This document shows, piece by piece, positions 12,816 through 23,637 of a DNA stretch of 64,000 bases. Numbering within the stretch: position 1 is the first letter of the stretch; each line of letters opens with the position of its first letter. Under the pieces are notes generated by a model that saw nothing but the letters and a program-made list of their open reading frames with translations, was not told where the DNA came from and searched no databases. The DNA is from Alphaproteobacteria bacterium. GTDB lineage: Bacteria; Pseudomonadota; Alphaproteobacteria; Caedimonadales; UBA9215. Both the position numbers and the translations under genes were made by a program. The DNA lies in the NCBI GenBank assembly GCA_009993885.1, contig JAACSN010000010.1, forward strand, positions 16,945-80,944, in the 5' to 3' direction.

Positions 12816-13457
12816 TTATCCTGGAGCGACGCGTTCCAGAATTGATTCTAGGAGCATAACCAAGAAGTCCATACACTTTTTACTCATTTTAATGAGCTCC
12901 TTTGGGTTATAGGCCATGCCGTGAACATAGTTAGCCATCACTCTATAGGTCACATAGAGTTTTTCCCAGCTGTCATCTGGACGGTCAAAGGCAATTTCTA
13001 ATTTCCGTTGAAAATTAAATCCTTTGACGTATTCAGGATCATTCTCCTCTAGGTCTCTCACTCTTATTTTATCTTTTTTCAGCTGGGACCCTGGAACTTT
13101 CTCTATCCCATAGGCCAATAAATCAGCGTCAGTCTGGATTTTCAATTTTTGCTTTAGCTCTTGGTATTCAAGTAATTTACAATAGTTTTCATCCTCAATG
13201 ATAAGGAACAGGTCAACTTGCGCTTCAAAAATAGCACGGAAAATCATCGGGATGGAGGCAGCAGATTTTTTTTCATCCAAAAGGCAAATATCTTCTGATA
13301 GTTGAACGATTCTTTTAAAAAGAAAATGCTCCCAAGAACTTTTTCCAGCCCCATCGTTATTCCAAGGGTGAGCTTGCATTTTTTCAAGAATTAACGCAAA
13401 ATTTGTTTCAGGTTCACTGATAGGCATAGTTAAAAATATTTTCCAAGTTGAGTTCAT
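12816..13457 (-). CDS. Hypothetical protein (213 aa)
   Basis: Clean ORF 31 nt upstream of the DUF45 gene on the same strand. No recognisable motif. Confidence 0.55.
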   Translation of the reverse strand: MNSTWKIFLTMPISEPETNFALILEKMQAHPWNNDGAGKSSWEHFLFKRIVQLSEDICLLDEKKSAASIPMIFRAIFEAQVDLFLIIEDENYCKLLEYQELKQKLKIQTDADLLAYGIEKVPGSQLKKDKIRVRDLEENDPEYVKGFNFQRKLEIAFDRPDDSWEKLYVTYRVMANYVHGMAYNPKELIKMSKKCMDFLVMLLESILERVAPG

Positions 13458-13555: not shown

Positions 13556-15031
13556 TTAAGTCCCACAAAAAGTTTGGTAAACGCGCTCCTCTGGTTTAGG
13601 AGGCTTTTGGAATTCCTTATATTCAGGTTTGTCTACATAAGGCTCCGAAAGAACCTCGAGCAACTTATGCAATTTGCTAAAATCACTTTGTTCTTCTGCA
13701 GCGAACAAAGCCTTCTCCACCTGGTGATTGCGCGGGATAAAAGCTGGATTACTGGCTCGCATCAGGCTGAAGGCGGACTCCGTTGACTCACTGTTCTGTT
13801 TAAGTCGGATTAACCACCGTTCCCACCAGTCCTGAAAATCCTCCGTTACATAATAGTCGCCTTTCGGAATGGTTTCAGAAATCAGATCACGAAATGTATT
13901 GGTGTAATCGGCGTGATGATGTTTCATCCACTTTAAGAGATCAGCAATCAATAACTCATCTGCTTTGTCTTCACCAAAAAAGCCCAACTTACGACGCATC
14001 ATAGATAACCATGCTGTTTGGAAAGGCGCATTAAATGACTGAATAACCTCTTCTGCCAGCGCAGCTGCCTGTTCGATATCTTTATGCAGTAATGGCATTA
14101 AGGATTCAGCAAAACGGGCTATATTCCACTGGGTAATATGTGGCTGGTTAGCATAAGCATAGCGCTTCATTTGATCGATGGAGCTGAAAACCGTTTCTGG
14201 ATCGTACGAATCCAAGAAGGCGCAGGGACCGTAATCAATGGTTTCACCAGAAATAGCCATATTATCCGTATTCATAACTCCATGGATAAAGCCAACTCGT
14301 AGCCAATTGACAAGCAAATCAATTTGCCGGTTCATTACGGCTTTGATCAACTCCAGATAGGGTTGTTCGGAACCCTTTAGCTCCGGATAGTGTCGGTCGA
14401 TGGCGTAATCAGCTAGTTGCTTTAGGCCTTTGCCATCTTTTTGCGTGGCTAAATATTGAAACGTCCCGACGCGCATGTGGCTGGAAGCTACACGTGTCAA
14501 AATCGCTCCTTGCAGCATGCTTTCCCGATAAACTTTTTCACCTGTTGTGACCACGGCAAGGCTCCGTGTTGTGGGAATACCCAGATTATGCATTGCTTCA
14601 CTGATAATGTATTCTCGAAGCATGGGGCCGAGCGCCGCCCTGCCATCCCCACGCTTGGCATAAGGTGTTTTACCGGAGCCTTTGAACTGGATATCTACAC
14701 GGGTTCCATCCGACGTAACATGTTCACCGATCAGATGTGCTCTTCCATCACCCAGTAGGGTGAAATGCCCGAACTGATGTCCAGCATAGGCCTGTGCTAG
14801 GGGTTCAGAGCCCTTGGGTAAAGCATTGCCGGAGAAAAGTTGGGCTAACTCCTTCTTAGAAGGCTTCTCAAGCATCAACCCCAATTTATTCGCTAATTTC
14901 TGATTTATGATGACAACATGTGGATCGCTAACCGGAATAGGATGCATCTTCGTGTAGAAATATCCCGGCAAGCGAAAATAGCTATTATCAAAATTCCAGC
15001 CTATTTGATTTTTATATGTGTCATCACTCAT
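13556..15031 (-). CDS. selO: Protein adenylyltransferase SelO (YdiU/UPF0061 pseudokinase-fold AMPylase/UMPylase)
   Basis: Family signatures AQAYAGHQFGHFTLLGDGRAHLIGE, HMRVGTF, GFIHGVMNTDNMAISGETIDYGPCAF. Length 491 aa. Confidence 0.9.
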   Translation of the reverse strand: MSDDTYKNQIGWNFDNSYFRLPGYFYTKMHPIPVSDPHVVIINQKLANKLGLMLEKPSKKELAQLFSGNALPKGSEPLAQAYAGHQFGHFTLLGDGRAHLIGEHVTSDGTRVDIQFKGSGKTPYAKRGDGRAALGPMLREYIISEAMHNLGIPTTRSLAVVTTGEKVYRESMLQGAILTRVASSHMRVGTFQYLATQKDGKGLKQLADYAIDRHYPELKGSEQPYLELIKAVMNRQIDLLVNWLRVGFIHGVMNTDNMAISGETIDYGPCAFLDSYDPETVFSSIDQMKRYAYANQPHITQWNIARFAESLMPLLHKDIEQAAALAEEVIQSFNAPFQTAWLSMMRRKLGFFGEDKADELLIADLLKWMKHHHADYTNTFRDLISETIPKGDYYVTEDFQDWWERWLIRLKQNSESTESAFSLMRASNPAFIPRNHQVEKALFAAEEQSDFSKLHKLLEVLSEPYVDKPEYKEFQKPPKPEERVYQTFCGT

Positions 15032-15131
15032 CGCTTACCTCAATCAATATATCGTTGCGCCGCATAAACGGAATTATCCATGGCGGGCTGTAAGGGTTCT
15101 GTCGCACGTTTACTGTGTATCTTTTTAAAAG

Positions 15132-15701
15132 TCATTTTTCAAAACGCCTAAACCATTCTAAACGATACGCTTGAGCAAACACCGCGTCTTGAATATAGAG
15201 CATATTCTCTGAATTCCTGCTATTTGCAGCTTTGCTAAAGTTATAGCTGCCAGTAATCAACCGTGCCCCGTCGACGATGATAGTCTTATTGTGGGCAATG
15301 CCTTGCACATCATCTATTTTGGTTTTTATGCCTGCTTTGCTAAGGCGATGGATTTGAGAGTATGGTGCTTTGAGTTGGCTTTTATCAAAGAGGATTTTTA
15401 CAGTGATCCCCTTTCTATGAGCCTCAATCAAAGCATCAGAAATAGGCAAGGAGGTAAAGCTGTAGGCCTGAACAAGGATTTCTTTCTTGGCTGATTGGAT
15501 GGCATGTAGGGCTAGCTTCTCGCATTGCCCCTCAGGAGAAAAACACACGTTAAGCGGAGGTGATTCCGTTTCAGAGGAAAACACCATTGGCAATTGGCCT
15601 TCGTAATACAGGTAGCCAGAGGCAAATCCAAATAGGAACAACAAAGGCATAACGCTTAGGGTAGATGTTGCTCTCTTGCGGTGTATTTTCTTAGATGTCA
15701 T
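15132..15701 (-). CDS. Phospholipase D-family endonuclease, Nuc-like (single HKD motif), with N-terminal signal/anchor
   Basis: HNKTIIVDGARLITGSYN matches HxKxxxxDxxxxxxGSxN. N-terminal hydrophobic segment LSVMPLLFLFGFASGYLYY. 11-nt overlap with the upstream gene. Confidence 0.85.
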   Translation of the reverse strand: MTSKKIHRKRATSTLSVMPLLFLFGFASGYLYYEGQLPMVFSSETESPPLNVCFSPEGQCEKLALHAIQSAKKEILVQAYSFTSLPISDALIEAHRKGITVKILFDKSQLKAPYSQIHRLSKAGIKTKIDDVQGIAHNKTIIVDGARLITGSYNFSKAANSRNSENMLYIQDAVFAQAYRLEWFRRFEK

Positions 15702-16692
15702 TTTTTTTGTCTATTTTATATTTTTTAGAATGGTCTTCTTGAGTGTTATTAATTCTAAAAACGCCATATTCTGAGTTTTGAAGTTTGTCATCTATGCATG
15801 CTACAAATAGAGCTTCAAAAAATACCGCCAAATTATATGTCATTGTATCCAAACTTGAACTTAAACATATTGGCCCTTCAGATTTAAAGTCTATTTTTTC
15901 AGTTAAATTATATTCCCAAGACGGCGCCATGAATTTGTTATCAGGCCCTATTGAAAAATTTTCTACGGTAACTCTATAATCTTCTTTGGGGTGTTCAATA
16001 GAATTTCTTAAGTTTGAAATTTTTCGATTATGTATATCTTCATTTTGAAGATATTGGACGATATTGTGATCTTCCCCAAGTTTTTTGGCCATCCATTCTA
16101 AAGCTTGTTTGAAATTAGACCCAGCATGTGGCGCATCATAAAAAAACTCTAACAGACGGTAGGATTGGATAAGAAAACGTTTTGCGTTGCTCAGATATGC
16201 CACAACATCATTATTCAGATTTTGAATTAGATTTAATGGCGGAATGACATTATTTATTTTATTTTGATTAATTAGGCGATCATTAGAAATTATTTTTTCA
16301 TTAAATTCTGTTTTTAATTTGGAAGAGAATGTTTCGCATTCAAAGAGTATCTGGCTGGTTTGCCATAAGTATAAAATGAAATCATTTAAGTCAAAAGAGT
16401 TTTTGAAAAATTGATGAGAAACTTTAATCATCTCTTCAGATTGGAGAAAACAGCGTGAGACTGAAATATTTTTCGTTCCTACTCTGTAGAGAAGTGCTGA
16501 ACTATGCCTTGTATCAGGCGCATTATTTTCAGGGTCTATAGTTTCAGCTGTTAAGGACCGAAATATATGATTACCACAGAAGATGATTAAATCATCGCCC
16601 ACCTTTTTAAAGTCCTGTGGGGCTGTATCAGCATCAGGATTTTCTGGATCTATTAGGTTAAAATTAAATGCATTGTCTCTGCCGAATGTCAT
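15691..16692 (-). CDS. Hypothetical protein with RNxxxH (HEPN-type) motif
   Basis: The ORF-track start at 16710 is TTG. The ATG at 16692 follows an AAGGA RBS. Motif LRNSIEH is encoded at 16008-15991. Overlaps the PLD gene start. Confidence 0.6.
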   Translation of the reverse strand: MTFGRDNAFNFNLIDPENPDADTAPQDFKKVGDDLIIFCGNHIFRSLTAETIDPENNAPDTRHSSALLYRVGTKNISVSRCFLQSEEMIKVSHQFFKNSFDLNDFILYLWQTSQILFECETFSSKLKTEFNEKIISNDRLINQNKINNVIPPLNLIQNLNNDVVAYLSNAKRFLIQSYRLLEFFYDAPHAGSNFKQALEWMAKKLGEDHNIVQYLQNEDIHNRKISNLRNSIEHPKEDYRVTVENFSIGPDNKFMAPSWEYNLTEKIDFKSEGPICLSSSLDTMTYNLAVFFEALFVACIDDKLQNSEYGVFRINNTQEDHSKKYKIDKKNDI

Positions 16693-16819
16693 AGTAGGAT
16701 TCCTTTGCAACTTGCCCTATTCATATGCAACCCCTCCAATAAAGAGGAGGGCATTATTCCTAGGGTCAATGTCGCTCTTTTACGGTATGTTTTTTTCATA
16801 ACAACTCAAAAGGCGCTAT

Positions 16820-17671
16820 TCAGTTATTGGAAAAAGTTATTATTCGAGTTGGCCATTCTGAAATTGGGGGTAAGCTAAGCAACTTTGCTTGAACCAATGC
16901 AGAAAAAGCTATTATTACAGTTAACCAGAAAATTCTATTTCTCCCCCTTTTAGCATCCTTGTGAGTACGCTCCTCTCTTTCATCCTCTTCTAGAGTCTTT
17001 AAAGCCTTCCCTTCAACAACGTAATATCCATCGGTCTCAGTTATATCTCCTGATGACACTAAGGATGCTAGATATAATTCAAATTTGTTTCTTATCTCTA
17101 TACGAAGCGGGTTTAAGATCCACCTATCTGTATAGATTTTGCTCATTAACTCCCATTTACCCACCCCATTAGATTTATTGTAGAAGGAAGTTTCAAGAGT
17201 CATTTGAAGTTCTAGCATAGATTTCAAAATATCCATTCGGCCTTTTGTAAAAGTCCCCTTTTTATTATGATAATAATTAGACAATCGATTAGTGAAAACA
17301 TCAAACTTCACTCTGAGCTTATCCCAAGACATTATGTAGCTTAAGAAAACGTAATATATATTTCTATAGTTAAATTCATGAAGACCAAGGTAATGCCTAA
17401 AATCGAAAATATATTCTTTTAAACCAATAACATCAATTGAATTTTCTACAGAAAATTCTTTCTTTTCCTCATTTAAAGATCGTACAAATAATTTGTTCTT
17501 CTTCAAATCTATACTGTCTATGAGGTGCTCTTCCTTGCCTTTTTTGTTAATGAGTGTGATTACATATAAATTTACAGCCTTTCCTTTCTCACCAGTTCTC
17601 GGGATATATTTAGGCACCTCGTGTGATAGTAACTTAGGGAGTAACCAGGTTAATATTTTTTGTTTTGGCAT
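16820..17671 (-). CDS. Hypothetical protein with C-terminal TM anchor (283 aa)
   Basis: Clean ORF with ATG start. C-terminal helix IFWLTVIIAFSALVQAKLL. No recognisable family. Confidence 0.55.
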   Translation of the reverse strand: MPKQKILTWLLPKLLSHEVPKYIPRTGEKGKAVNLYVITLINKKGKEEHLIDSIDLKKNKLFVRSLNEEKKEFSVENSIDVIGLKEYIFDFRHYLGLHEFNYRNIYYVFLSYIMSWDKLRVKFDVFTNRLSNYYHNKKGTFTKGRMDILKSMLELQMTLETSFYNKSNGVGKWELMSKIYTDRWILNPLRIEIRNKFELYLASLVSSGDITETDGYYVVEGKALKTLEEDEREERTHKDAKRGRNRIFWLTVIIAFSALVQAKLLSLPPISEWPTRIITFSNN

Positions 17672-17726: not shown

Positions 17727-18011
17727 TTAGGAAGTTATGCCACGCTTATCTTGAAACAATTCTGCCCCTTTATTAGCTAGAAGGTCAATGTGGAATTCTT
17801 GATTTTGCATCATTTCTTTGAGCTCTAGGAGGCCACCTAGGATGGCGAAGATGTTCTCTTTTTTCTCAAGATTTTCTTGGAGGTTGTCGCCTGCTTGCAC
17901 ATCGAAGCTTTCCATAAGACCAGACTTTTCAAAGAGCCCTCCAAGCTGAATTAATGTTCTTGTTCGGGCCCGCCGAAAGGAGGTGTGTGTATGATGATTT
18001 TCTTGATTCAT
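17727..18011 (-). CDS. traD: Ti-type conjugal transfer protein TraD (small relaxosome accessory protein)
   Basis: Trimmed to the ATG at 18011. RRARTRTLIQLGGLFEKSGL resembles the conserved basic-IQLGGL-KAGL core of Ti/Rhizobium TraD. Position is traC-traD, divergent from traA. Confidence 0.7.
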   Translation of the reverse strand: MNQENHHTHTSFRRARTRTLIQLGGLFEKSGLMESFDVQAGDNLQENLEKKENIFAILGGLLELKEMMQNQEFHIDLLANKGAELFQDKRGITS

Positions 18012-18027
18012 TCTATATCTCTTTCTC

Positions 18028-18315
18028 TCAAACCGACTTAGCAACCGGCTGTGCTTTTTGATCAATACATTTAGTGTTTCGAGGCTTTGTAAATTGAAAG
18101 ATGGTTGCAGCTTGAAGCCACTTCTCCTTTTGATCTTTTGGTGAGCAGCTCCAAGAATCTTGCACAATGCACGCGGCTAGTTGCGGCGTGAATTTGTCAC
18201 CGATTTCTGAGGAGAGATATTTTAGAAGATGTTGAGCTTGTCGTTTTTCGAGGTCTTTCTTTTTCTCTTTAAGCTCTGCAATCTTAGAGTCGATTGCTTG
18301 TAGGGATTGAGGCAT
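18028..18315 (-). CDS. traC: Ti-type TraC-like relaxosome accessory protein
   Basis: Small coiled-coil N-terminus (IAELKEKKKDLEKRQAQ). First gene divergent from traA, immediately upstream of traD, as in Ti-plasmid traCD(G)/oriT/traA loci. Sequence-level similarity was not verified. Confidence 0.5.
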   Translation of the reverse strand: MPQSLQAIDSKIAELKEKKKDLEKRQAQHLLKYLSSEIGDKFTPQLAACIVQDSWSCSPKDQKEKWLQAATIFQFTKPRNTKCIDQKAQPVAKSV

Positions 18316-18430: not shown

Positions 18431-18510
18431 GCATTTGCAAAATGCTTGAAAGGCGCGCAGATACGTTGCATAATGCAACTATACGCTTTGTCGCAAGCGA
18501 CGTACCCTCA
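18431..18510 (-). promoter_or_regulatory. Candidate oriT (inverted repeats plus a MOBQ-like nick motif on the minus strand)
   Basis: Inverted repeats at 18431-18445, 18465-18479 (gttgcat-a-atgcaac) and 18490-18501. On the minus strand the second repeat is followed directly by GTATCTGCGCGCCTTTC, which resembles remembered RSF1010/pTiC58 nick regions (...GTAAGTGCGCCCT / ACGTATAATTGCGCCCT). Confidence 0.45.
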
Positions 18511-18537
18511 CAATCCCCAGACTTTACACGGAGTTCA

Positions 18538-21500
18538 ATGGCCCTAGCCCACACCAGACTTAAGGTATTTTCACGTTCATCAAGGCGAACAGTTGGTTCT
18601 CTTGCCTATCGTGCAGGTGTGTGTTTGTTAGATAAAGAAACGGGCGAACTTCACGATTACAGCAAGAAACAAGTTCATTCCGTTGATTTATTGATTCCTG
18701 AAGATGCTCCACAGTGGGCACAGGATTTACAAAAGAAAATTGCTGAGAATCGAACAGCCGGCGTTCAAGAACTTTCCGATATCGCTGAAGCTGCCGAAAA
18801 AAGAAAAGACTCCCAAGTATATCGTGAATATGAGTTCTCTTTGCACCGTGAATTAACCGATGCTCAGAACAAAGAATTGGCTTTAAAGTTCCTTCAAGAA
18901 CAGTTCTGTTCCAGAGGGATGATGGTTAAAGCAAACTTTCATTTTGACGTTGATAAAGAGGGTAATAGAAAACCCCATTGTCATGCTGTGATGCTGACAA
19001 GGCGCCTTGAAGAACATGGTCCCTCCAAGTTGAAAGATCGGAGCTGGAATCATAAAGATCTAGCCACAGAATGGCGCAAAGAATTCTGTAATTATTCCAA
19101 TGAGGCTTTTAAAAAACTTGGCCTTGATATCGTGCTGGATCCCCGTACTTACGCAGAGCAAGGCATTAACATTGAACCCCAAACAAAACTGAGTCGAAAC
19201 ACCCTTGAAATCGAACAGCGTCATGGTGTAAATCCCAAAGATATTCTCTCCACACCGGTGACAACCAGAGGGCAAGATTTTCAACAAATCAGCTTGCGCA
19301 ACCTTTACAAAATCATCGATAACCCCAAGATCGTTTTGGAAGATATTTCAAAGCAACAAATGACTTTCATGTGGGGAGATGTTGTTAAGTTTTTGGCTCG
19401 TCATATTGATGACCAAGCCTTGTTTGAACGTGTGTGCTTAAAGCTTCAAAGCTCTGAAGAACTGGTTTGTGTTAAAGAAGGAGGCTCTTTATCCCAACGG
19501 GTCTTTACAACCAAGACACGCCTTGAGGAAGAAACACGCTTTGTTGAAAATGTTAGATCCTTAAAACATAGTCATACTCACAGCGTTGATCCTACTGTTG
19601 TTCAGTCTGTTATTGACTCAACCAACCACGCATTTCAAGAACGATCTAAAAAGCCTAAAGCCTCTTTATCCGATGATCAGGTACGCGCAATCCGTCACAT
19701 GGCTTCTTCAAATCAGCTCAGTTTTATAGAAGGCTATGCAGGGGCCGGTAAGACCACCGTGATGCGCGGCATGAAAGAAATCTGGGAAGCAAATGGTTAT
19801 AAAGTTTATGGACTTGCCCCGACAGGACGGGCAAGTGATAACCTTGCGGACTGTGGCATTAGCTCACAAACCGTTGATCGCTTTTTAAGATCCTATGAAC
19901 ATGGCCAAAACCAGCTCAACTCAAAGAGTATTCTTGTGCTCGATGAAGCAGGTATGGTGAGCAGTAAAAACTTTACGGCTCTTATTGAAGCCATAAAAGA
20001 ACTGGGTGTTAAGCTGGTGGCCTGTGGGGATCGAGGACAGCTCTCTCCCGTTGAAGCGGGGGCTCCTTTTAGGCTTGCCATTAATGAAATCGGCAAAGCA
20101 GATTTAACGACAGTTCTGCGCCAAAAAGTTCCCTGGCAATCACAGGCAACGTCTCTTTTCGGAGAAGGAAAAACAGAGGATGCTTTGCGCCTCTATGGTG
20201 AGCATGGGCGCATTAAAATTGTTGAGGAATCACTACCCGCAACTATTGTGGAACAATACAATATTTCCCGCCGTATTACGGGAAATATCGCTCACGAAAT
20301 GAATCAAGATATTGAGCGGGCGAAAGAACACGGCGAAGAGCTTCCTTTCAAAAAACATCATGACTATGGCTTATTCATAGACTGGAAGAACACTAGAGAC
20401 ACCTGCACAAAAGAAATCTTTCAGAACATAAAAACCTACAAAGACGTTATGAAAGAAATGGGTGTTGATGGTGTTGATTTCTGTAACAAGGTTATTAACC
20501 ACCCTCAAAAAATAACTCAAGAGTACGACAAATACCGCCTCGCCAAGAAACTTGAGGTAGATTGGCGTATTGATGTTACCCATACCTGTGATCCTCGCCT
20601 TGAAACCAAAAAAGAGCTTATAAGCGATTGGTTTAAATCCACCCAAGATCATCCAGAGGCAAAGCAAGCCATGATGGCTTATAGCAACAGGGATGTGCTT
20701 CACCTCAACATGATGGCCCGCCAGCTTAAAAAAGAATCTGGTGAAATTGGAAAAGACGAATTTACCTATACCATCGAGCGTAATGATGGCGAGGAACTAG
20801 GGACACGTAAAATTATCCTTGAAGAACGAACCTTTAGTAAAGGGGATCAAATTGTCTTCACAGAAAACAATACAGGCCTTGGGGTAAGAAATGGTACCTT
20901 GGGGCAAATCACGTCTCTGGATAAATCAAAGATCACAGCAACCTTTAAAGAAGAAGGCGTTGAGAAAGAGGTTTCCTTCTCTCCAAATCTTTATAAGCGA
21001 TTTGATAACGGTTGGGCTCTGACCATTCATAAAAACCAAGGGGCTACTGTTGATCTGGCATTTAAGCTCGCTAGTTTTGAAGAATATAAAAACTTAAGTT
21101 ATGTCGGTATGACCCGCCATGAAAAAGACGCTAAACTTTACGGATCCGATTTCGATTTCTACCGTGATGAAAAAATATATGATCGCTTGGGGCGCCACCA
21201 GGACAAATTGTCTTCTTTGGATTATCTCAGCCCTGAGGATTCTGAAAAGCTGCTCAAGTCCGAAAGAGATCGGCTCAATAAGACCTTTGAGGCTGTTGGT
21301 CGTAAGCTTGAAGCTGTTGGTTATGTGGGCGGCAGAGCATGGGGGCAGCTCTGCGACAAGTTCCTAGGGAGAACCCCAGAGAGTAACCTCATTAGAGTTG
21401 ACTACGAAGCCCTTCATTACCATAAGACAGAAGCCACCAGAGCCGATGAGGTTCTTCGAGGCATTAAATATGATGACTCTATCCTGTCTCGTGATGTTAT

Positions 21501-23637
21501 TCTCAAATTTGACGATCAAATTGAGGTGAAGAAAACAGAAGCTCCAGAGACGAAAGAGAAGCAGGAGACACTAGAAAAGCAAGTTGAAGCAGTCGTACCT
21601 ATATCTCCATTTGCTTCAGCATCAAAGAAAGCTGTTCAGCCTAAAGAAGAGCTGCCTACCACTAGCCCTCCAGTGGAGCCGGTTGTTGATACTATAGTTT
21701 CTGAGCCAGACAAAAAGACAGCTCCTGAGGCAGGAGAAAACAGAAAAGCGGATGTGCCCAAAGCTGAACAAACTGTTGTTGAGACTCCACTCAAACAACA
21801 AAAACAACGGCCAGACCGCAAGCAGAAACTACCCACGCAAGACTTCCAAAAGCTTATAAGAGATGTCGAAGGGGCCATCCGCATTGAAGATCTAGCAAAG
21901 GATGTTTTAGGGGCTCGAAATCTTAACACCAGCTTATCTAATTCTTCCCAACTAAGGTTTGGGCGTCAGGGAAGTTTGTCTATTGAGTTAAAGGGGCAAT
22001 ATGCAGGTTCTTGGAAAAACTGGGAAAATGATGAAAAAGGCGGCCCCTTAAAGCTCATTCAAAATGAAAAAGGATTAGATTTTAATGCGTCTCTTGCCTT
22101 TGCATCAAACTACTGCCGAGGAAGTATTGCAAAGGATATTGATAATTTCTTAAAGGGCAAAAAAGGGCGAGAGCTTTCTCCTGCTGAACGTAAAGCTCAA
22201 GAAGCAGCCTATAAAGCAGAATGCCTTAAACAAGAAGCAGAAACACTGCGTATTAGTGATGCAAAAGTTCAAGACATCCAAGCACTCGTTGCAAAGGCTC
22301 ATCCCCTTACGGGTACGCCCGCAGAAACTTATTTGCGAAAAGAACGCGGCATTCAAGGTGATCTACCAGAGTCCTTAAGGTACCTAGCGCCAAAAACCTC
22401 ATTTTCCTATAAAGGAAAAAGCATCCCAATAAAAAGTGGTGCGCTACTATCGGTTGCAACGGATCGTCACGGTGTGATTAAAGCTATTCAAATAACTCAG
22501 CTCACAGAAGATGGAAAAAAAGCTGTTGGATTTGATGGGGCTAAGCTACCAAAAAGAACCTATGGCGTTCAAAAAAGCTCTTTTGTAGAGCTTCAAAAAG
22601 GAAGTCTTAAAGATCCTATCATTCTATCTGAAGGCATTGAAACAGCGCTCTCGGTGAAAGAAACAGGAATTAAAGGAAGAATTTTGTGCTCCCTTGGAAC
22701 CTCTAATGTCGGTAATCTTGACGTGAAAGGTCGAGATATTGTTATCGCAGCAGATTGGGATGGCAGCTTTGAAGTGCAATCTTGGAAAGCAACAGAGAAA
22801 GCTAGGGTAGGTCTTGAAGCTAAAGGAAATGCTGTTTCTTATATTCTGCCCATAAAAGATCCATGGAAAACGCCAGAATTGACCTCCGAGTTAAGAAATG
22901 GAAAACTGGATTTTAACGATCTCTTAAAACAAGAAGGTGTAAACTCAGTAATAGATCGTGTATCAGATCGACTCCCCGGGGTTATTGGCACGATGTCATC
23001 CTCTAGGGAACTTCAAATTAAGGATTCCAATGAAAGACAAGAAAGTAATCCCCTTTCCGAAAAACAATCTACTGACCCTCGGGTTAACCTGTCAGCAGAT
23101 CACGCCAAGGACCCGGATCAGCTTTTGGCGCAAATGGACAAAGCAACTTCTCAAGAAGCGGCCTTAAAAGGCAATATCCTCGCTTACTTTGAGCAGGAAC
23201 TTTCGAAACCAGAAAATAGAAACTGGAACAAAGAACACGTCCTAGAGGACGTTCAGAAGAACCCTCTTGATGCCCTTAGCTGGTGGCATAAAGACTGTGG
23301 CGGCAGTGCGTTCGACCCTAACAAATCTCTGAATGATCAGCCTTCTAATTCACAGACTGGCAGCTCTTTGGACGATTCCCTAAAAATCCCTGAGGATGAT
23401 TTTGCAAAAGACTTCGCCAAAGAGCTTAAAATTTTGGATGACAGCATCGAACGCGTTTCTCATGAGCAAGGTTACCAAGGTGCTTTTGCCAATTATACCC
23501 AACAAAGAGAAAACCTTCTAAAGGGCCTTGATGGTGCTAAAATAGAAGAACTCAAAGCACACGAACCAGAGCTAGCTCATCGCATTGAAGAATGGCAAAC
23601 CTTAGAAAAAATTCGTGAGATAGGCTTAGGATTATAG
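18538..23637 (+). CDS. traA: Ti-type TraA: MobA/MobL (MOBQ) relaxase, RecD/TraA-like helicase and C-terminal primase-associated/Toprim domain
   Basis: Start trimmed to the ATG at 18538 (GGAG RBS; MALAHTRLKVFSRS...SLAYRAG with the relaxase Tyr). His motif HFDVDKEGNRKPHCHAVM. Walker A GYAGAGKTT (nt ~19732) and Walker B VLDEAG. C-terminal LRFGRQGSLSIELKGQYAGSWKNWENDEKGGPLKLI, then Toprim ILSEGIETALS ... IAADWDG (nt ~21860-22940). Confidence 0.9.
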   Translation: MALAHTRLKVFSRSSRRTVGSLAYRAGVCLLDKETGELHDYSKKQVHSVDLLIPEDAPQWAQDLQKKIAENRTAGVQELSDIAEAAEKRKDSQVYREYEFSLHRELTDAQNKELALKFLQEQFCSRGMMVKANFHFDVDKEGNRKPHCHAVMLTRRLEEHGPSKLKDRSWNHKDLATEWRKEFCNYSNEAFKKLGLDIVLDPRTYAEQGINIEPQTKLSRNTLEIEQRHGVNPKDILSTPVTTRGQDFQQISLRNLYKIIDNPKIVLEDISKQQMTFMWGDVVKFLARHIDDQALFERVCLKLQSSEELVCVKEGGSLSQRVFTTKTRLEEETRFVENVRSLKHSHTHSVDPTVVQSVIDSTNHAFQERSKKPKASLSDDQVRAIRHMASSNQLSFIEGYAGAGKTTVMRGMKEIWEANGYKVYGLAPTGRASDNLADCGISSQTVDRFLRSYEHGQNQLNSKSILVLDEAGMVSSKNFTALIEAIKELGVKLVACGDRGQLSPVEAGAPFRLAINEIGKADLTTVLRQKVPWQSQATSLFGEGKTEDALRLYGEHGRIKIVEESLPATIVEQYNISRRITGNIAHEMNQDIERAKEHGEELPFKKHHDYGLFIDWKNTRDTCTKEIFQNIKTYKDVMKEMGVDGVDFCNKVINHPQKITQEYDKYRLAKKLEVDWRIDVTHTCDPRLETKKELISDWFKSTQDHPEAKQAMMAYSNRDVLHLNMMARQLKKESGEIGKDEFTYTIERNDGEELGTRKIILEERTFSKGDQIVFTENNTGLGVRNGTLGQITSLDKSKITATFKEEGVEKEVSFSPNLYKRFDNGWALTIHKNQGATVDLAFKLASFEEYKNLSYVGMTRHEKDAKLYGSDFDFYRDEKIYDRLGRHQDKLSSLDYLSPEDSEKLLKSERDRLNKTFEAVGRKLEAVGYVGGRAWGQLCDKFLGRTPESNLIRVDYEALHYHKTEATRADEVLRGIKYDDSILSRDVILKFDDQIEVKKTEAPETKEKQETLEKQVEAVVPISPFASASKKAVQPKEELPTTSPPVEPVVDTIVSEPDKKTAPEAGENRKADVPKAEQTVVETPLKQQKQRPDRKQKLPTQDFQKLIRDVEGAIRIEDLAKDVLGARNLNTSLSNSSQLRFGRQGSLSIELKGQYAGSWKNWENDEKGGPLKLIQNEKGLDFNASLAFASNYCRGSIAKDIDNFLKGKKGRELSPAERKAQEAAYKAECLKQEAETLRISDAKVQDIQALVAKAHPLTGTPAETYLRKERGIQGDLPESLRYLAPKTSFSYKGKSIPIKSGALLSVATDRHGVIKAIQITQLTEDGKKAVGFDGAKLPKRTYGVQKSSFVELQKGSLKDPIILSEGIETALSVKETGIKGRILCSLGTSNVGNLDVKGRDIVIAADWDGSFEVQSWKATEKARVGLEAKGNAVSYILPIKDPWKTPELTSELRNGKLDFNDLLKQEGVNSVIDRVSDRLPGVIGTMSSSRELQIKDSNERQESNPLSEKQSTDPRVNLSADHAKDPDQLLAQMDKATSQEAALKGNILAYFEQELSKPENRNWNKEHVLEDVQKNPLDALSWWHKDCGGSAFDPNKSLNDQPSNSQTGSSLDDSLKIPEDDFAKDFAKELKILDDSIERVSHEQGYQGAFANYTQQRENLLKGLDGAKIEELKAHEPELAHRIEEWQTLEKIREIGLGL

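What the first reader, a model, noticed from the sequence alone, without database searches (positions are those of the whole stretch)
15132..17671. RNxxxH (HEPN-motif) protein translationally coupled to a Nuc-type PLD nuclease, preceded by a membrane-anchored orphan
Seen: the 333-aa orphan carries LRNSIEH (16008-15991), an exact R-[N]-x-x-x-H HEPN-type motif, in its helical C-terminal half. Its stop overlaps by 11 nt the start of a 189-aa single-HKD protein (HNKTIIVDGARLITGSYN) that has an N-terminal signal/anchor. A 283-aa orphan with a C-terminal TM helix lies 110 nt upstream on the same strand. Established: Nuc-type PLD endonucleases occur on conjugative plasmids (e.g. pKM101 Nuc, periplasmic), and PLD and HEPN domains are both recurrent defence effectors. 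Inference: this may be a two- or three-gene RNase-plus-DNase module. The predicted export of the PLD protein versus a cytoplasmic HEPN partner is an unresolved oddity.
Basis: partly seen in the sequence, partly recalled or inferred. Interest (0 to 1): 0.65.

Follow-up and report, generated by a model that had tools for sequence, protein, structure and literature searches.

The report
Unannotated HEPN-type protein beside plasmid nuclease
The 333-aa protein belongs to a widespread family with no annotation whose hallmark is a HEPN-type RNase motif, but it lies next to an ordinary exported plasmid nuclease only because cargo genes have piled up at that nuclease's start, not because the two work together.

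Summary
The sequence features are real. The 333-aa protein is not an orphan. It belongs to a family of about 330-aa proteins (270 clusters at 50% identity) with no Pfam, NCBIfam or PADLOC match.

Some members have an Rx6H spacing instead. In a confident AlphaFold model (pLDDT 95) the motif ends the third helix of a four-helix bundle, where HEPN domains carry it. Fold matches to solved HEPN toxins rank top but are not significant.

The 189-aa protein is a standard Nuc-type single-HKD nuclease with an N-terminal export signal (E 7e-24 to pKM101 Nuc, 1BYR). Relatives occur on at least 5000 plasmids.

The pairing is not conserved. None of about 30 loci with a family member has a PLD or any shared neighbour. 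The HEPN gene and the 283-aa gene are an AT-rich insert (32-33% GC against 43%).

Three copies of the nuclease gene's 5' end lie in this stretch. One precedes the HEPN gene, one is the real start, and one precedes SelO. The 11-nt overlap is therefore most likely a recombination junction.

Verdict: a new HEPN-like family, an ordinary Nuc, and no dedicated RNase-plus-DNase module.

The parts
16820..17671 (-). 283-aa protein with a C-terminal membrane helix. It is a member of a plasmid and phage family of unknown function.
   Evidence: ORF. Hydropathy peak at residues 247-265. PHROG 7611 at E 8e-12 over residues 35-259. Full-length homologues of 25-30% identity on 17 plasmids, all solitary genes. 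GC 33.5%.
16689..16799 (-). 36-aa ORF, a displaced remnant of a nuc (PLD) 5' end (copy 3). Its TGA overlaps the ATG of the 333-aa gene in an ATGA.
   Evidence: The peptide MKKTYRKRATLTLGIMP... resembles the PLD N-terminus MTSKKIHRKRATSTLSVMP.... The local DNA alignment scores 34, above all 100 shuffles (maximum 31).
15691..16692 (-). 333-aa member of an unannotated family. It has a small N-terminal beta/alpha domain and a C-terminal HEPN-like four-helix domain, and is a predicted RNase.
   Evidence: 270 representative relatives. No Pfam, NCBIfam or PADLOC hit. AlphaFold pLDDT 95.3, pTM 0.92. GC 32.3%, GC3 26.6%.
15991..16008 (-). RNSIEH, the Rx4H HEPN-type motif (residues 229-234), at the C-terminal end of helix 210-233.
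   Evidence: R kept in 114/117, N in 109/117, E in 106/117, H in 117/117. Rx6H variants (RNALDxxH) occur in relatives. The position matches the published HEPN description.
15132..15701 (-). 189-aa Nuc-type single-HKD PLD-superfamily nuclease with an N-terminal signal or anchor (nuc 5' copy 2, the intact gene).
   Evidence: PLDc_2 at 5.6e-27. 1BYR Nuc at 6.6e-24 over residues 48-186. At least 5000 plasmid records match, 4284 of them conjugative. GC 43.2%.
15240..15293 (-). HKD motif HNKTIIVDGARLITGSYN (HxK-x4-D-x6-GSxN).
   Evidence: Sequence. Aligns with the active-site motif of Nuc 1BYR.
15040..15135 (-). 31-aa ORF, a second displaced nuc 5' remnant (copy 1). Its ATG overlaps the PLD stop in an ATGA, and it ends 8 nt before the SelO start.
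   Evidence: MTFKKIHSKRAT... against MTSKKIHRKRAT.... 26 of 36 nt are identical (shuffle maximum 23), and most differences are synonymous.
13556..15031 (-). SelO (491 aa), the next cargo gene. It lies behind nuc 5' remnant copy 1.
   Evidence: Pfam SelO in the precomputed gene lists.
17727..18315 (-). traC-like (18028-18315) and traD-like (17727-18011) DNA-transfer genes. They are divergent from the Ti-type relaxase traA (18442-23637, + strand).
   Evidence: Pfam TraD at 4.9e-11 and a weak TraC hit. TraA domains.

Best explanation
The stretch is a stack of independently acquired cargo genes. It lies next to the DNA-transfer genes (traA / oriT / traC-traD) of a roughly 100-kb conjugative element with an F-type secretion system. 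It is not a dedicated module.

(1) The 333-aa protein belongs to an unannotated, widely scattered family of stand-alone proteins of about 330 aa.
- Shown: the family exists, the RNxxEH(P) motif (Rx4-6H) is invariant or nearly so, the predicted fold is confident, the motif lies at the end of the third core helix, and the gene is solitary.
- Inferred: it is a HEPN-superfamily, metal-independent endoribonuclease that acts as a homodimer. The N-terminal domain of about 95 aa and the beta-sheet insert would sense a signal or hold the enzyme inactive. It would serve as a single-gene abortive-infection, defence or addiction factor of mobile elements, as other one-gene HEPN proteins do.

(2) The 189-aa protein is the usual exported Nuc-type single-HKD nuclease of conjugative elements.
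- Shown: its homology to Nuc and its N-terminal signal-like segment.
- Inferred: periplasmic location and non-specific nuclease activity.

(3) The 283-aa protein is a tail-anchored member of a plasmid and phage family of unknown function.

(4) The 11-nt overlap is most likely a recombination junction. The AT-rich HEPN gene lies between a displaced remnant of a nuc 5' end and the intact nuc gene, and a further nuc 5' remnant precedes SelO. This suggests that cargo entered repeatedly by recombination at the start of nuc. Co-transcription and some translational coupling may still occur as a by-product.
For: Family and motif:
- 270 representatives at E<=1e-3.
- R229, N230, E233 and H234 are kept in 114, 109, 106 and 117 of 117 members. 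The 107-member alignment gives the same picture.
- Rx6H variants occur in close relatives.

Fold:
- pLDDT 95.3 and pTM 0.92. Helices at 102-143, 159-185, (194-205), 210-233 and 277-303, with the motif at the end of 210-233. The domain-only model agrees.
- This matches the published HEPN description: motif at the end of helix 3, inserts between helices 2 and 3.
- Foldseek's best PDB matches are HEPN proteins: Csx1, SO_3166 (5yep) and HepT (7bxo, 6m6w, 6m6u, 8xeh). In the domain-only search, 10 of the top 50 are HEPN chains, with target-normalised TM-score up to 0.51.
- HEPN_Apea is the only Pfam family hit by more than one member (5 of 107, best E 1e-3). The family consensus gives weak hits to HEPN_Cthe2314 and HEPN_Apea.

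Solitary gene in mobile or variable regions.

PLD.

Mosaic origin:
- GC of 32-33% against 43%.
- Three copies of the nuc 5' end at gene junctions.

Element context.
Against: - No curated HEPN model reaches its threshold, and no structural match is significant (best E 0.087). HEPN membership therefore rests on the motif, the topology and weak top-ranked hits.
- No RNase activity, dimer or phenotype has been shown for any family member.
- No RNA data could be found for the locus.
- The repeat copies are short (about 40-50 nt). Their shuffle support is modest: scores of 34 and 30 against a shuffle maximum of 31.
- The window protein departs from the family at P154 (N) and in the C-terminal CPxxY motif.
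- The 11-nt overlap could still give real translational coupling in this element.
Confidence: 0.7

Rival explanations
1. One reading: the HEPN-like protein and the PLD nuclease, with or without the 283-aa membrane protein, form one co-evolved RNase-plus-DNase defence module, expressed through translational coupling.
For: The genes are on the same strand, overlap by 11 nt, and no terminator-like site lies between them on the minus strand. Both domains recur in defence systems, and HEPN-HKD fusions are known. The arrangement is identical in every copy of this element.
Against: No PLD and no shared neighbour occurs at 29 loci with family members, nor in the Pfam-annotated contexts. PLD relatives on plasmids lack a HEPN partner. 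GC3 is 27% in the HEPN gene against 45% in the PLD gene. The junction lies in a repeated nuc 5' unit. The two proteins are predicted to be in different compartments.
Confidence: 0.06
2. The 333-aa family is not a catalytic HEPN RNase. Either it is a helical bundle that carries a convergent R-N-x-x-E-H motif, or it is a HEPN-like domain used for binding or regulation.
For: No significant hit to any HEPN profile or solved structure. The long helices, the N-terminal domain and the beta insert are unlike minimal HEPN proteins.
Against: An invariant H with nearly invariant R and N, and Rx4/Rx6 spacing variants, are what catalytic HEPN families show. The motif is at the canonical position. HEPN chains lead the weak structural matches.
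Confidence: 0.15
3. The 333-aa protein is an establishment or anti-defence factor of the leading region. It would be made early in the recipient cell after transfer to disable host RNA-based functions, rather than to protect the host from phage.
For: The gene string traC-traD-283-333-nuc-SelO points away from the presumed oriT, on the side opposite the relaxase gene. One family member lies near the oriT side of a mobilisable plasmid. That leading regions concentrate anti-defence genes is from my own knowledge and was not checked here.
Against: Many family members are chromosomal or far from any transfer genes. The direction of transfer was not determined.
Confidence: 0.08
4. In this host the exported PLD acts on lipids rather than DNA. 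Earlier notes place the host among intracellular Holosporales-type bacteria. The PLD would then resemble the small single-HKD Pld described in Rickettsia (from my own knowledge), not a plasmid nuclease.
For: The fold and size are the same as in small exported single-HKD proteins. The second-best PDB matches are mitochondrial cardiolipin hydrolases. The intracellular lifestyle comes from earlier notes and was not tested here.
Against: The best match by far is the Nuc endonuclease (6.6e-24 against 1.6e-14). The gene lies among conjugation genes, as nuc does on thousands of conjugative plasmids.
Confidence: 0.1

Closest known systems
HepT / SO_3166 (HEPN toxins of HEPN-MNT toxin-antitoxin pairs; PDB 5YEP, 7BXO, 6M6W)
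   Same: Single HEPN domain with an R-N-x-x-x-H type motif at the end of helix 3. These are the best-ranked structural matches to the model.
   Different: They are about 130 aa and are always paired with an MNT antitoxin gene. The family here is about 330 aa and solitary. It also has an N-terminal domain of about 95 aa, very long helices 1 and 2, and a beta-sheet insert between helices 3 and 4.
ApeA (single-gene HEPN defence protein; Pfam HEPN_Apea PF18739; bioRxiv 10.64898/2026.03.20.713152)
   Same: One gene with an N-terminal non-catalytic domain and a C-terminal HEPN domain carrying an RN...H motif (RNKITH in Ec1ApeA). It is found on mobile elements and defence islands. HEPN_Apea is the only Pfam family hit by several members of the family here.
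   Different: ApeA is about 470-600 aa with a beta-rich N-domain of about 300 aa. The protein here is 333 aa with an N-domain of about 95 aa. The Pfam hits are far below threshold, and the window protein has none. PADLOC gives no consistent hit.
Single-gene HEPN abortive-infection proteins AbiD/AbiF, AbiJ, AbiU2, AbiV (Anantharaman et al. 2013, PMC3710099)
   Same: Stand-alone HEPN proteins on plasmids and mobile elements, with variable N-terminal domains.
   Different: No profile match to any of them. The abortive-infection function is only inferred for the family here.
Nuc endonuclease of IncN plasmid pKM101 (PDB 1BYR/1BYS)
   Same: Single HKD motif, about 155-aa mature domain, N-terminal export signal, encoded on a conjugative element. 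E 6.6e-24 over residues 48-186.
   Different: Moderate sequence identity only. There are two cysteines (C52, C59) near the mature N-terminus. The NCBIfam NucT equivalog cut-offs are not reached.
Displaced gene-end arrays (rhs and cdiA C-terminal orphans), and the stacked traA 3' tails reported for this same element
   Same: Short diverged copies of one gene end mark successive cargo insertions, in the same orientation, each copy next to a different cargo gene.
   Different: Here it is the 5' end of an exported nuclease gene that is repeated, not the 3' end of a toxin or relaxase gene. The remnants are only about 40-50 nt.

Membership tests
HEPN superfamily | Conserved Rx4-6H motif, usually with a polar residue (N/H/D) after R | tested here: met
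   R kept in 114/117, N in 109/117, H in 117/117. Both Rx4H and Rx6H spacings occur in the family.
HEPN superfamily | [quoted passage not shown] | tested here: met
   The AlphaFold secondary structure and helix order match the description read in PMC3710099. This was judged from topology, not by superposition.
HEPN superfamily | Significant 3D similarity to a solved HEPN domain | tested here: inconclusive
   HEPN chains rank at the top (10 of the top 50 in the domain-only search; target-normalised TM-score up to 0.51, probability up to 0.57). All E-values are 0.087 or higher.
HEPN superfamily | Match to a curated HEPN sequence profile | tested here: not met
   The window protein has no hit. 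5 of 107 members hit HEPN_Apea at 1e-3 or worse. The family consensus gives HEPN_Cthe2314 at E 0.15 and HEPN_Apea at E 0.24. A profile search of PDB sequences finds nothing.
HEPN superfamily | Metal-independent RNase activity from a dimer with a composite active site | not testable with these tools
   Needs biochemistry or a multimer prediction.
ApeA family | Protein of about 470-600 aa with a beta-rich N-terminal domain of about 300 aa and a PF18739 match above threshold | tested here: not met
   333 aa with an N-domain of about 95 aa. No PF18739 hit for the window protein. PADLOC gives no consistent hit to any defence-protein model across the 107 members.
Nuc-type PLD-superfamily nuclease | Single HxK(x)4D(x)6GSxN motif in a domain of about 150 aa | tested here: met
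   HNKTIIVDGARLITGSYN at residues 137-154. PLDc_2 at 94.6 bits against a cut-off of 27.
Nuc-type PLD-superfamily nuclease | Closest solved relative is the Nuc endonuclease | tested here: met
   1BYR at E 6.6e-24. The next match is cardiolipin hydrolase at 1.6e-14.
Nuc-type PLD-superfamily nuclease | N-terminal signal for export | tested here: inconclusive
   A basic n-region followed by a hydrophobic segment at residues 13-33, with the Nuc domain starting at about residue 48. No signal-peptide predictor was available and there is no localisation experiment.
DISARM (DrmC as its PLD component) | PLD gene lies with drmA, drmB and a methylase | tested here: not met
   DrmC models are hit (1e-14), but no DISARM partner genes lie within 10 kb on either side.
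   0 of 29 loci with a family member have a PLD or any shared neighbour. The Pfam-annotated contexts agree. Plasmid PLD loci have no HEPN gene.

The most novel reading that the evidence does not exclude
The RNxxEH family of about 330 aa is a previously unrecognised, widespread single-gene HEPN RNase immunity system. Its small N-terminal domain would sense infection, by a route unrelated to ApeA's sensor. Carried beside the transfer genes of an element that makes F-type pili, it could protect the host against pilus-dependent phages, including RNA phages. The repeated nuc 5' ends would mark a cargo-capture hotspot that mirrors the stacked traA tails on the other side of oriT.
Probability: 0.3. 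Interest if true: 0.55.

Novelty: new member of a known kind. Interest (0 to 1): 0.35.

Why it matters
If the prediction holds, a few hundred clusters of "hypothetical proteins" would gain a function as stand-alone HEPN RNases. These occur in Pseudomonas, Photobacterium, Alcaligenes, spirochaetes, many metagenomes and several plasmids. That would add one more single-gene candidate to the anti-phage and addiction repertoire, with a compact architecture that is easy to test.

The negative result matters too. Gene overlap and a plausible domain pairing are not enough to call a defence module. Here the overlap is best explained by how cargo was inserted.

The repeated nuc 5' ends, together with the traA tails noted earlier, suggest that this element gains cargo by recombination at the ends of conserved backbone genes.

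Tried and rejected
- Pfam, NCBIfam, PADLOC and PHROGs scans of the 333-aa protein gave nothing usable.
- PADLOC on all 107 members gave only scattered single hits. One was to PD-T4-4_B, which the literature describes as an ABC-ATPase/PD-(D/E)XK system, so the hit is spurious.
- A profile search of PDB sequences found nothing.
- Foldseek against the viral structure library found nothing.
- The weak DUF5677 hit of the family consensus (E 0.02) was checked against the DUF5677 protein in the window by profile comparison. There is no relation.
- A word-based homologue search made both proteins look like orphans. The exhaustive search and tblastn corrected that.
- Alignments A1 and A2 were too divergent for locus retrieval. 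A narrower alignment, A3, worked.
- The search for a conserved partner gene found none outside closely related Pseudomonas loci.
- The search for a variant of the element without the insert showed the same arrangement in every copy.
- No close plasmid relative of the element was found.
- No RNA runs hold the locus.
- No paper mentions the assembly accession.
Full report
**1. What is there**

On the minus strand the gene order is as follows:
- traC-like, 18028-18315
- traD-like, 17727-18011
- a 283-aa gene, 16820-17671
- a 36-aa ORF, 16689-16799
- the 333-aa gene, 15691-16692
- the 189-aa PLD gene, 15132-15701
- a 31-aa ORF, 15040-15135
- SelO, 13556-15031
- then DUF5677 and YgjP genes

The Ti-type relaxase traA (18442-23637) is divergent from traC. 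Further along, the window holds a full F-type secretion system: TraC, TraU, TrbC, TraN, TraF, TraH, TraG and a coupling protein. An integrase with an AbiE pair lies at the other end.

The same contig of about 100.4 kb recurs in many aquifer metagenomes and in one NCBI assembly. Earlier notes of this scan place the genome in a Holosporales-type intracellular bacterium. I did not test that.

**2. Check of the observation**

RNSIEH is at 16008-15991 (residues 229-234). The overlap with the PLD gene is 11 nt. The HKD motif is HNKTIIVDGARLITGSYN. The PLD has a basic-then-hydrophobic N-terminus. The 283-aa protein has a C-terminal hydrophobic helix.

The ATG at 16692 is the likely start of the 333-aa gene. 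It follows an AAGGA sequence, and the family N-terminus (conserved R5, A8) begins there. The long form of the PLD is the right one, because plasmid homologues align from residue 13.

**3. The 333-aa protein is not an orphan**

A word-based search found only two relatives. An exhaustive HMMER search of 1.84 billion representatives found 270 at E<=1e-3 and 95 at E<=1e-10. Nearly all are 300-350 aa and align end to end.

A profile search returned 119 more. All were named "hypothetical protein" or unnamed, and none had a Pfam domain. Sources include Pseudomonas fluorescens, Alcaligenes and Zhongshania, among others.

- R229 in 114
- N230 in 109
- E233 in 106
- H234 in all 117
- P235 in 86

Other highly conserved residues are D53-P54, G72, R80, P257 and E293. 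Several close relatives read RNALDxxH, an Rx6H spacing, in place of RNxxEH. A variable spacing of 4 to 6 residues is the signature of HEPN active sites.

**4. Fold**

AlphaFold2 with the 107-sequence alignment gives a very confident model (pLDDT 95.3, pTM 0.92). A domain-only model agrees (pLDDT 94.4). The elements are:
- a small beta region (25-69) and a helix (76-95)
- long helices at 102-143 and 159-185
- a short helix at 194-205
- a helix at 210-233 that ends in RNSIEH
- a beta-sheet insert at 239-263
- a last helix at 277-303

The reference analysis of the superfamily (PMC3710099) describes a four-helix up-down bundle. [quoted passage not shown] The model fits this description point by point.

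Foldseek finds no significant match. Even so, HEPN proteins lead the lists: Csx1 6qzt (E 0.087), SO_3166 5yep, HepT 7bxo, 6m6w and 6m6u, and HEPN-MNT 8xeh. They are 10 of the top 50 for the domain-only model, with target-normalised TM-score up to 0.51.

Sequence profiles give only sub-threshold hints. HEPN_Apea is hit by 5 of 107 members. The family consensus hits HEPN_Cthe2314 and HEPN_Apea at E 0.15-0.24.

I put the chance that this is a true HEPN-superfamily domain at about 0.8-0.85. It is not a member of any curated HEPN family.

**5. The PLD is an ordinary Nuc**

It scores 94.6 bits against PLDc_2. Its best solved relative is the pKM101 Nuc endonuclease, 1BYR, at E 6.6e-24, aligned over residues 48-186. 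That leaves about 47 N-terminal residues, which hold the signal-like segment.

tblastn reaches the limit of 5000 matching plasmid records, and 4284 of them are typed conjugative. In the two plasmid loci I inspected, the PLD gene has no HEPN gene beside it, and in one of them it lies among transfer genes.

**6. The 283-aa protein**

It matches PHROG 7611 (E 8e-12, nearly full length). It has full-length homologues on 17 plasmids in Enterobacter, Klebsiella, Salmonella, Shewanella, Agrobacterium and Burkholderia. In the three loci I inspected, each is a lone hypothetical gene with different neighbours. Its function remains unknown.

**7. Is the pairing conserved? No**

I collected about 30 loci that hold a family member:
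- the nearest relatives
- five genomes
- fifteen metagenome contigs
- a Photobacterium plasmid
- long contigs

A phmmer search with the PLD and with the 283-aa protein found nothing in any of them. An all-against-all comparison of the neighbours at 29 loci found no shared gene, except among closely related Pseudomonas loci.

The family gene is typically flanked by non-coding DNA on both sides. It lies in variable or mobile settings:
- between a relaxase/NikA pair and RepA on a mobilisable plasmid
- near a transposase, a resolvase and a GIY-YIG gene
- next to qnrS on a Photobacterium plasmid
- beside ATPase and DUF4238-like genes in Pseudomonas

**8. Why the genes touch**

Composition changes sharply at the junction. 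The HEPN gene has 32.3% GC (GC3 26.6%) and the 283-aa gene 33.5%. The PLD has 43.2% (GC3 44.7%), traD, traC and traA have 42-43%, and SelO has 45.5%.

A repeat search then showed three same-orientation copies of the first 40-50 nt of the PLD gene:
- The real start at 15701 encodes MTSKKIHRKRATSTLSVMP.
- A copy at 15135 encodes MTFKKIHSKRAT. Its ATG overlaps the PLD stop, and its 31-aa ORF ends 8 nt before SelO.
- A copy at 16799 encodes MKKTYRKRATLTLGIMP. Its 36-aa ORF ends in the ATGA that starts the 333-aa gene.

The copy at 15135 shares 26 of 36 nt with the real start, against a shuffle maximum of 23. The local alignment scores are 34 and 30, against a maximum of 31 in 100 shuffles. By my own codon-by-codon reading of the two sequences printed, most differences between the copy at 15135 and the real start are synonymous. 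Such a pattern would be expected if the remnant came from a diverged but once functional nuc allele.

The last codons of the 333-aa ORF and its stop lie inside the repeat unit. The simplest reading is that cargo entered more than once by recombination at the 5' end of nuc, each time leaving a displaced 5' remnant. On that reading the 11-nt overlap is a junction by-product. This mirrors the stacked traA 3' tails that an earlier agent described on the other side of oriT. How these insertions happened is inferred, not shown.

**9. How it most likely works**

The 333-aa protein is predicted to be a cytoplasmic, dimeric, metal-independent endoRNase. Its N-terminal domain and beta insert would keep it silent until a trigger arrives. 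Like other one-gene HEPN proteins (ApeA, AbiD/F, AbiJ, AbiU2, AbiV), it would act in abortive infection, defence or addiction for the element that carries it.

The Nuc-type PLD would be exported and would degrade nucleic acid in the periplasm, as described for pKM101 Nuc (from my own knowledge). The two need not interact.

No RNA data exist to test co-transcription.

**10. Novelty and verdict**

The module hypothesis is not supported. What remains is a new, sizeable, unannotated family in the HEPN mould (a new member of a known kind), an ordinary Nuc, a plasmid and phage protein of unknown function, and a small structural curiosity in the repeated nuc 5' ends.

Interest is moderate (0.35). New HEPN families are found regularly. 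This one is compact, widespread and directly testable.

Noticed in passing
window 15040-15135, 15666-15705 and 16689-16809 (minus strand): Three same-orientation copies of the 5' end of the nuc/PLD gene. Two are short remnant ORFs (31 and 36 aa), coupled by an ATGA overlap or an 8-nt gap to the cargo genes behind them (SelO and the HEPN-like gene). This looks like a cargo-insertion hotspot at the start of nuc. It mirrors the stacked traA 3' tails reported earlier for this element.
   Followed up: partly
window 12816-13457 (minus strand): The DUF5677 protein (Pfam 1.5e-08) contains YRVMANYVH, which has an Rx6H spacing. The consensus of the 333-aa family weakly hit DUF5677 (E 0.02), but a profile comparison showed no relation. 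Whether DUF5677 is itself HEPN-like was not examined.
   Followed up: partly
window 15132-15701, PLD residues 52 and 59: Two cysteines flank the FSPEGQ segment at the start of the mature Nuc-like domain (NVCFSPEGQCEKL). pKM101 Nuc has none there (alignment). A disulfide would fit a periplasmic location.
   Followed up: no
L010 4882-5838 and L009/L011/L020 downstream genes (Pseudomonas loci): In Pseudomonas the family gene lies beside a large ATPase-like gene, a DUF4238-like gene (MSRKDLETKKRHHYVWANYL...) and a 318-aa helical protein. This resembles a defence island. These neighbours are shared only among close relatives.
   Followed up: no
L002 1429-2443: One close relative of the 333-aa protein (34% identity) is split into a 199-aa N-terminal part and a 79-aa C-terminal part, with the motif region missing. 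It is apparently a decayed copy.
   Followed up: no
contig length: Independent assemblies give contigs of nearly the same length (100353, 100462, 100468 and 100505 bases). This could mean a circular replicon of about 100 kb rather than an integrated element, despite the integrase gene.
   Followed up: no
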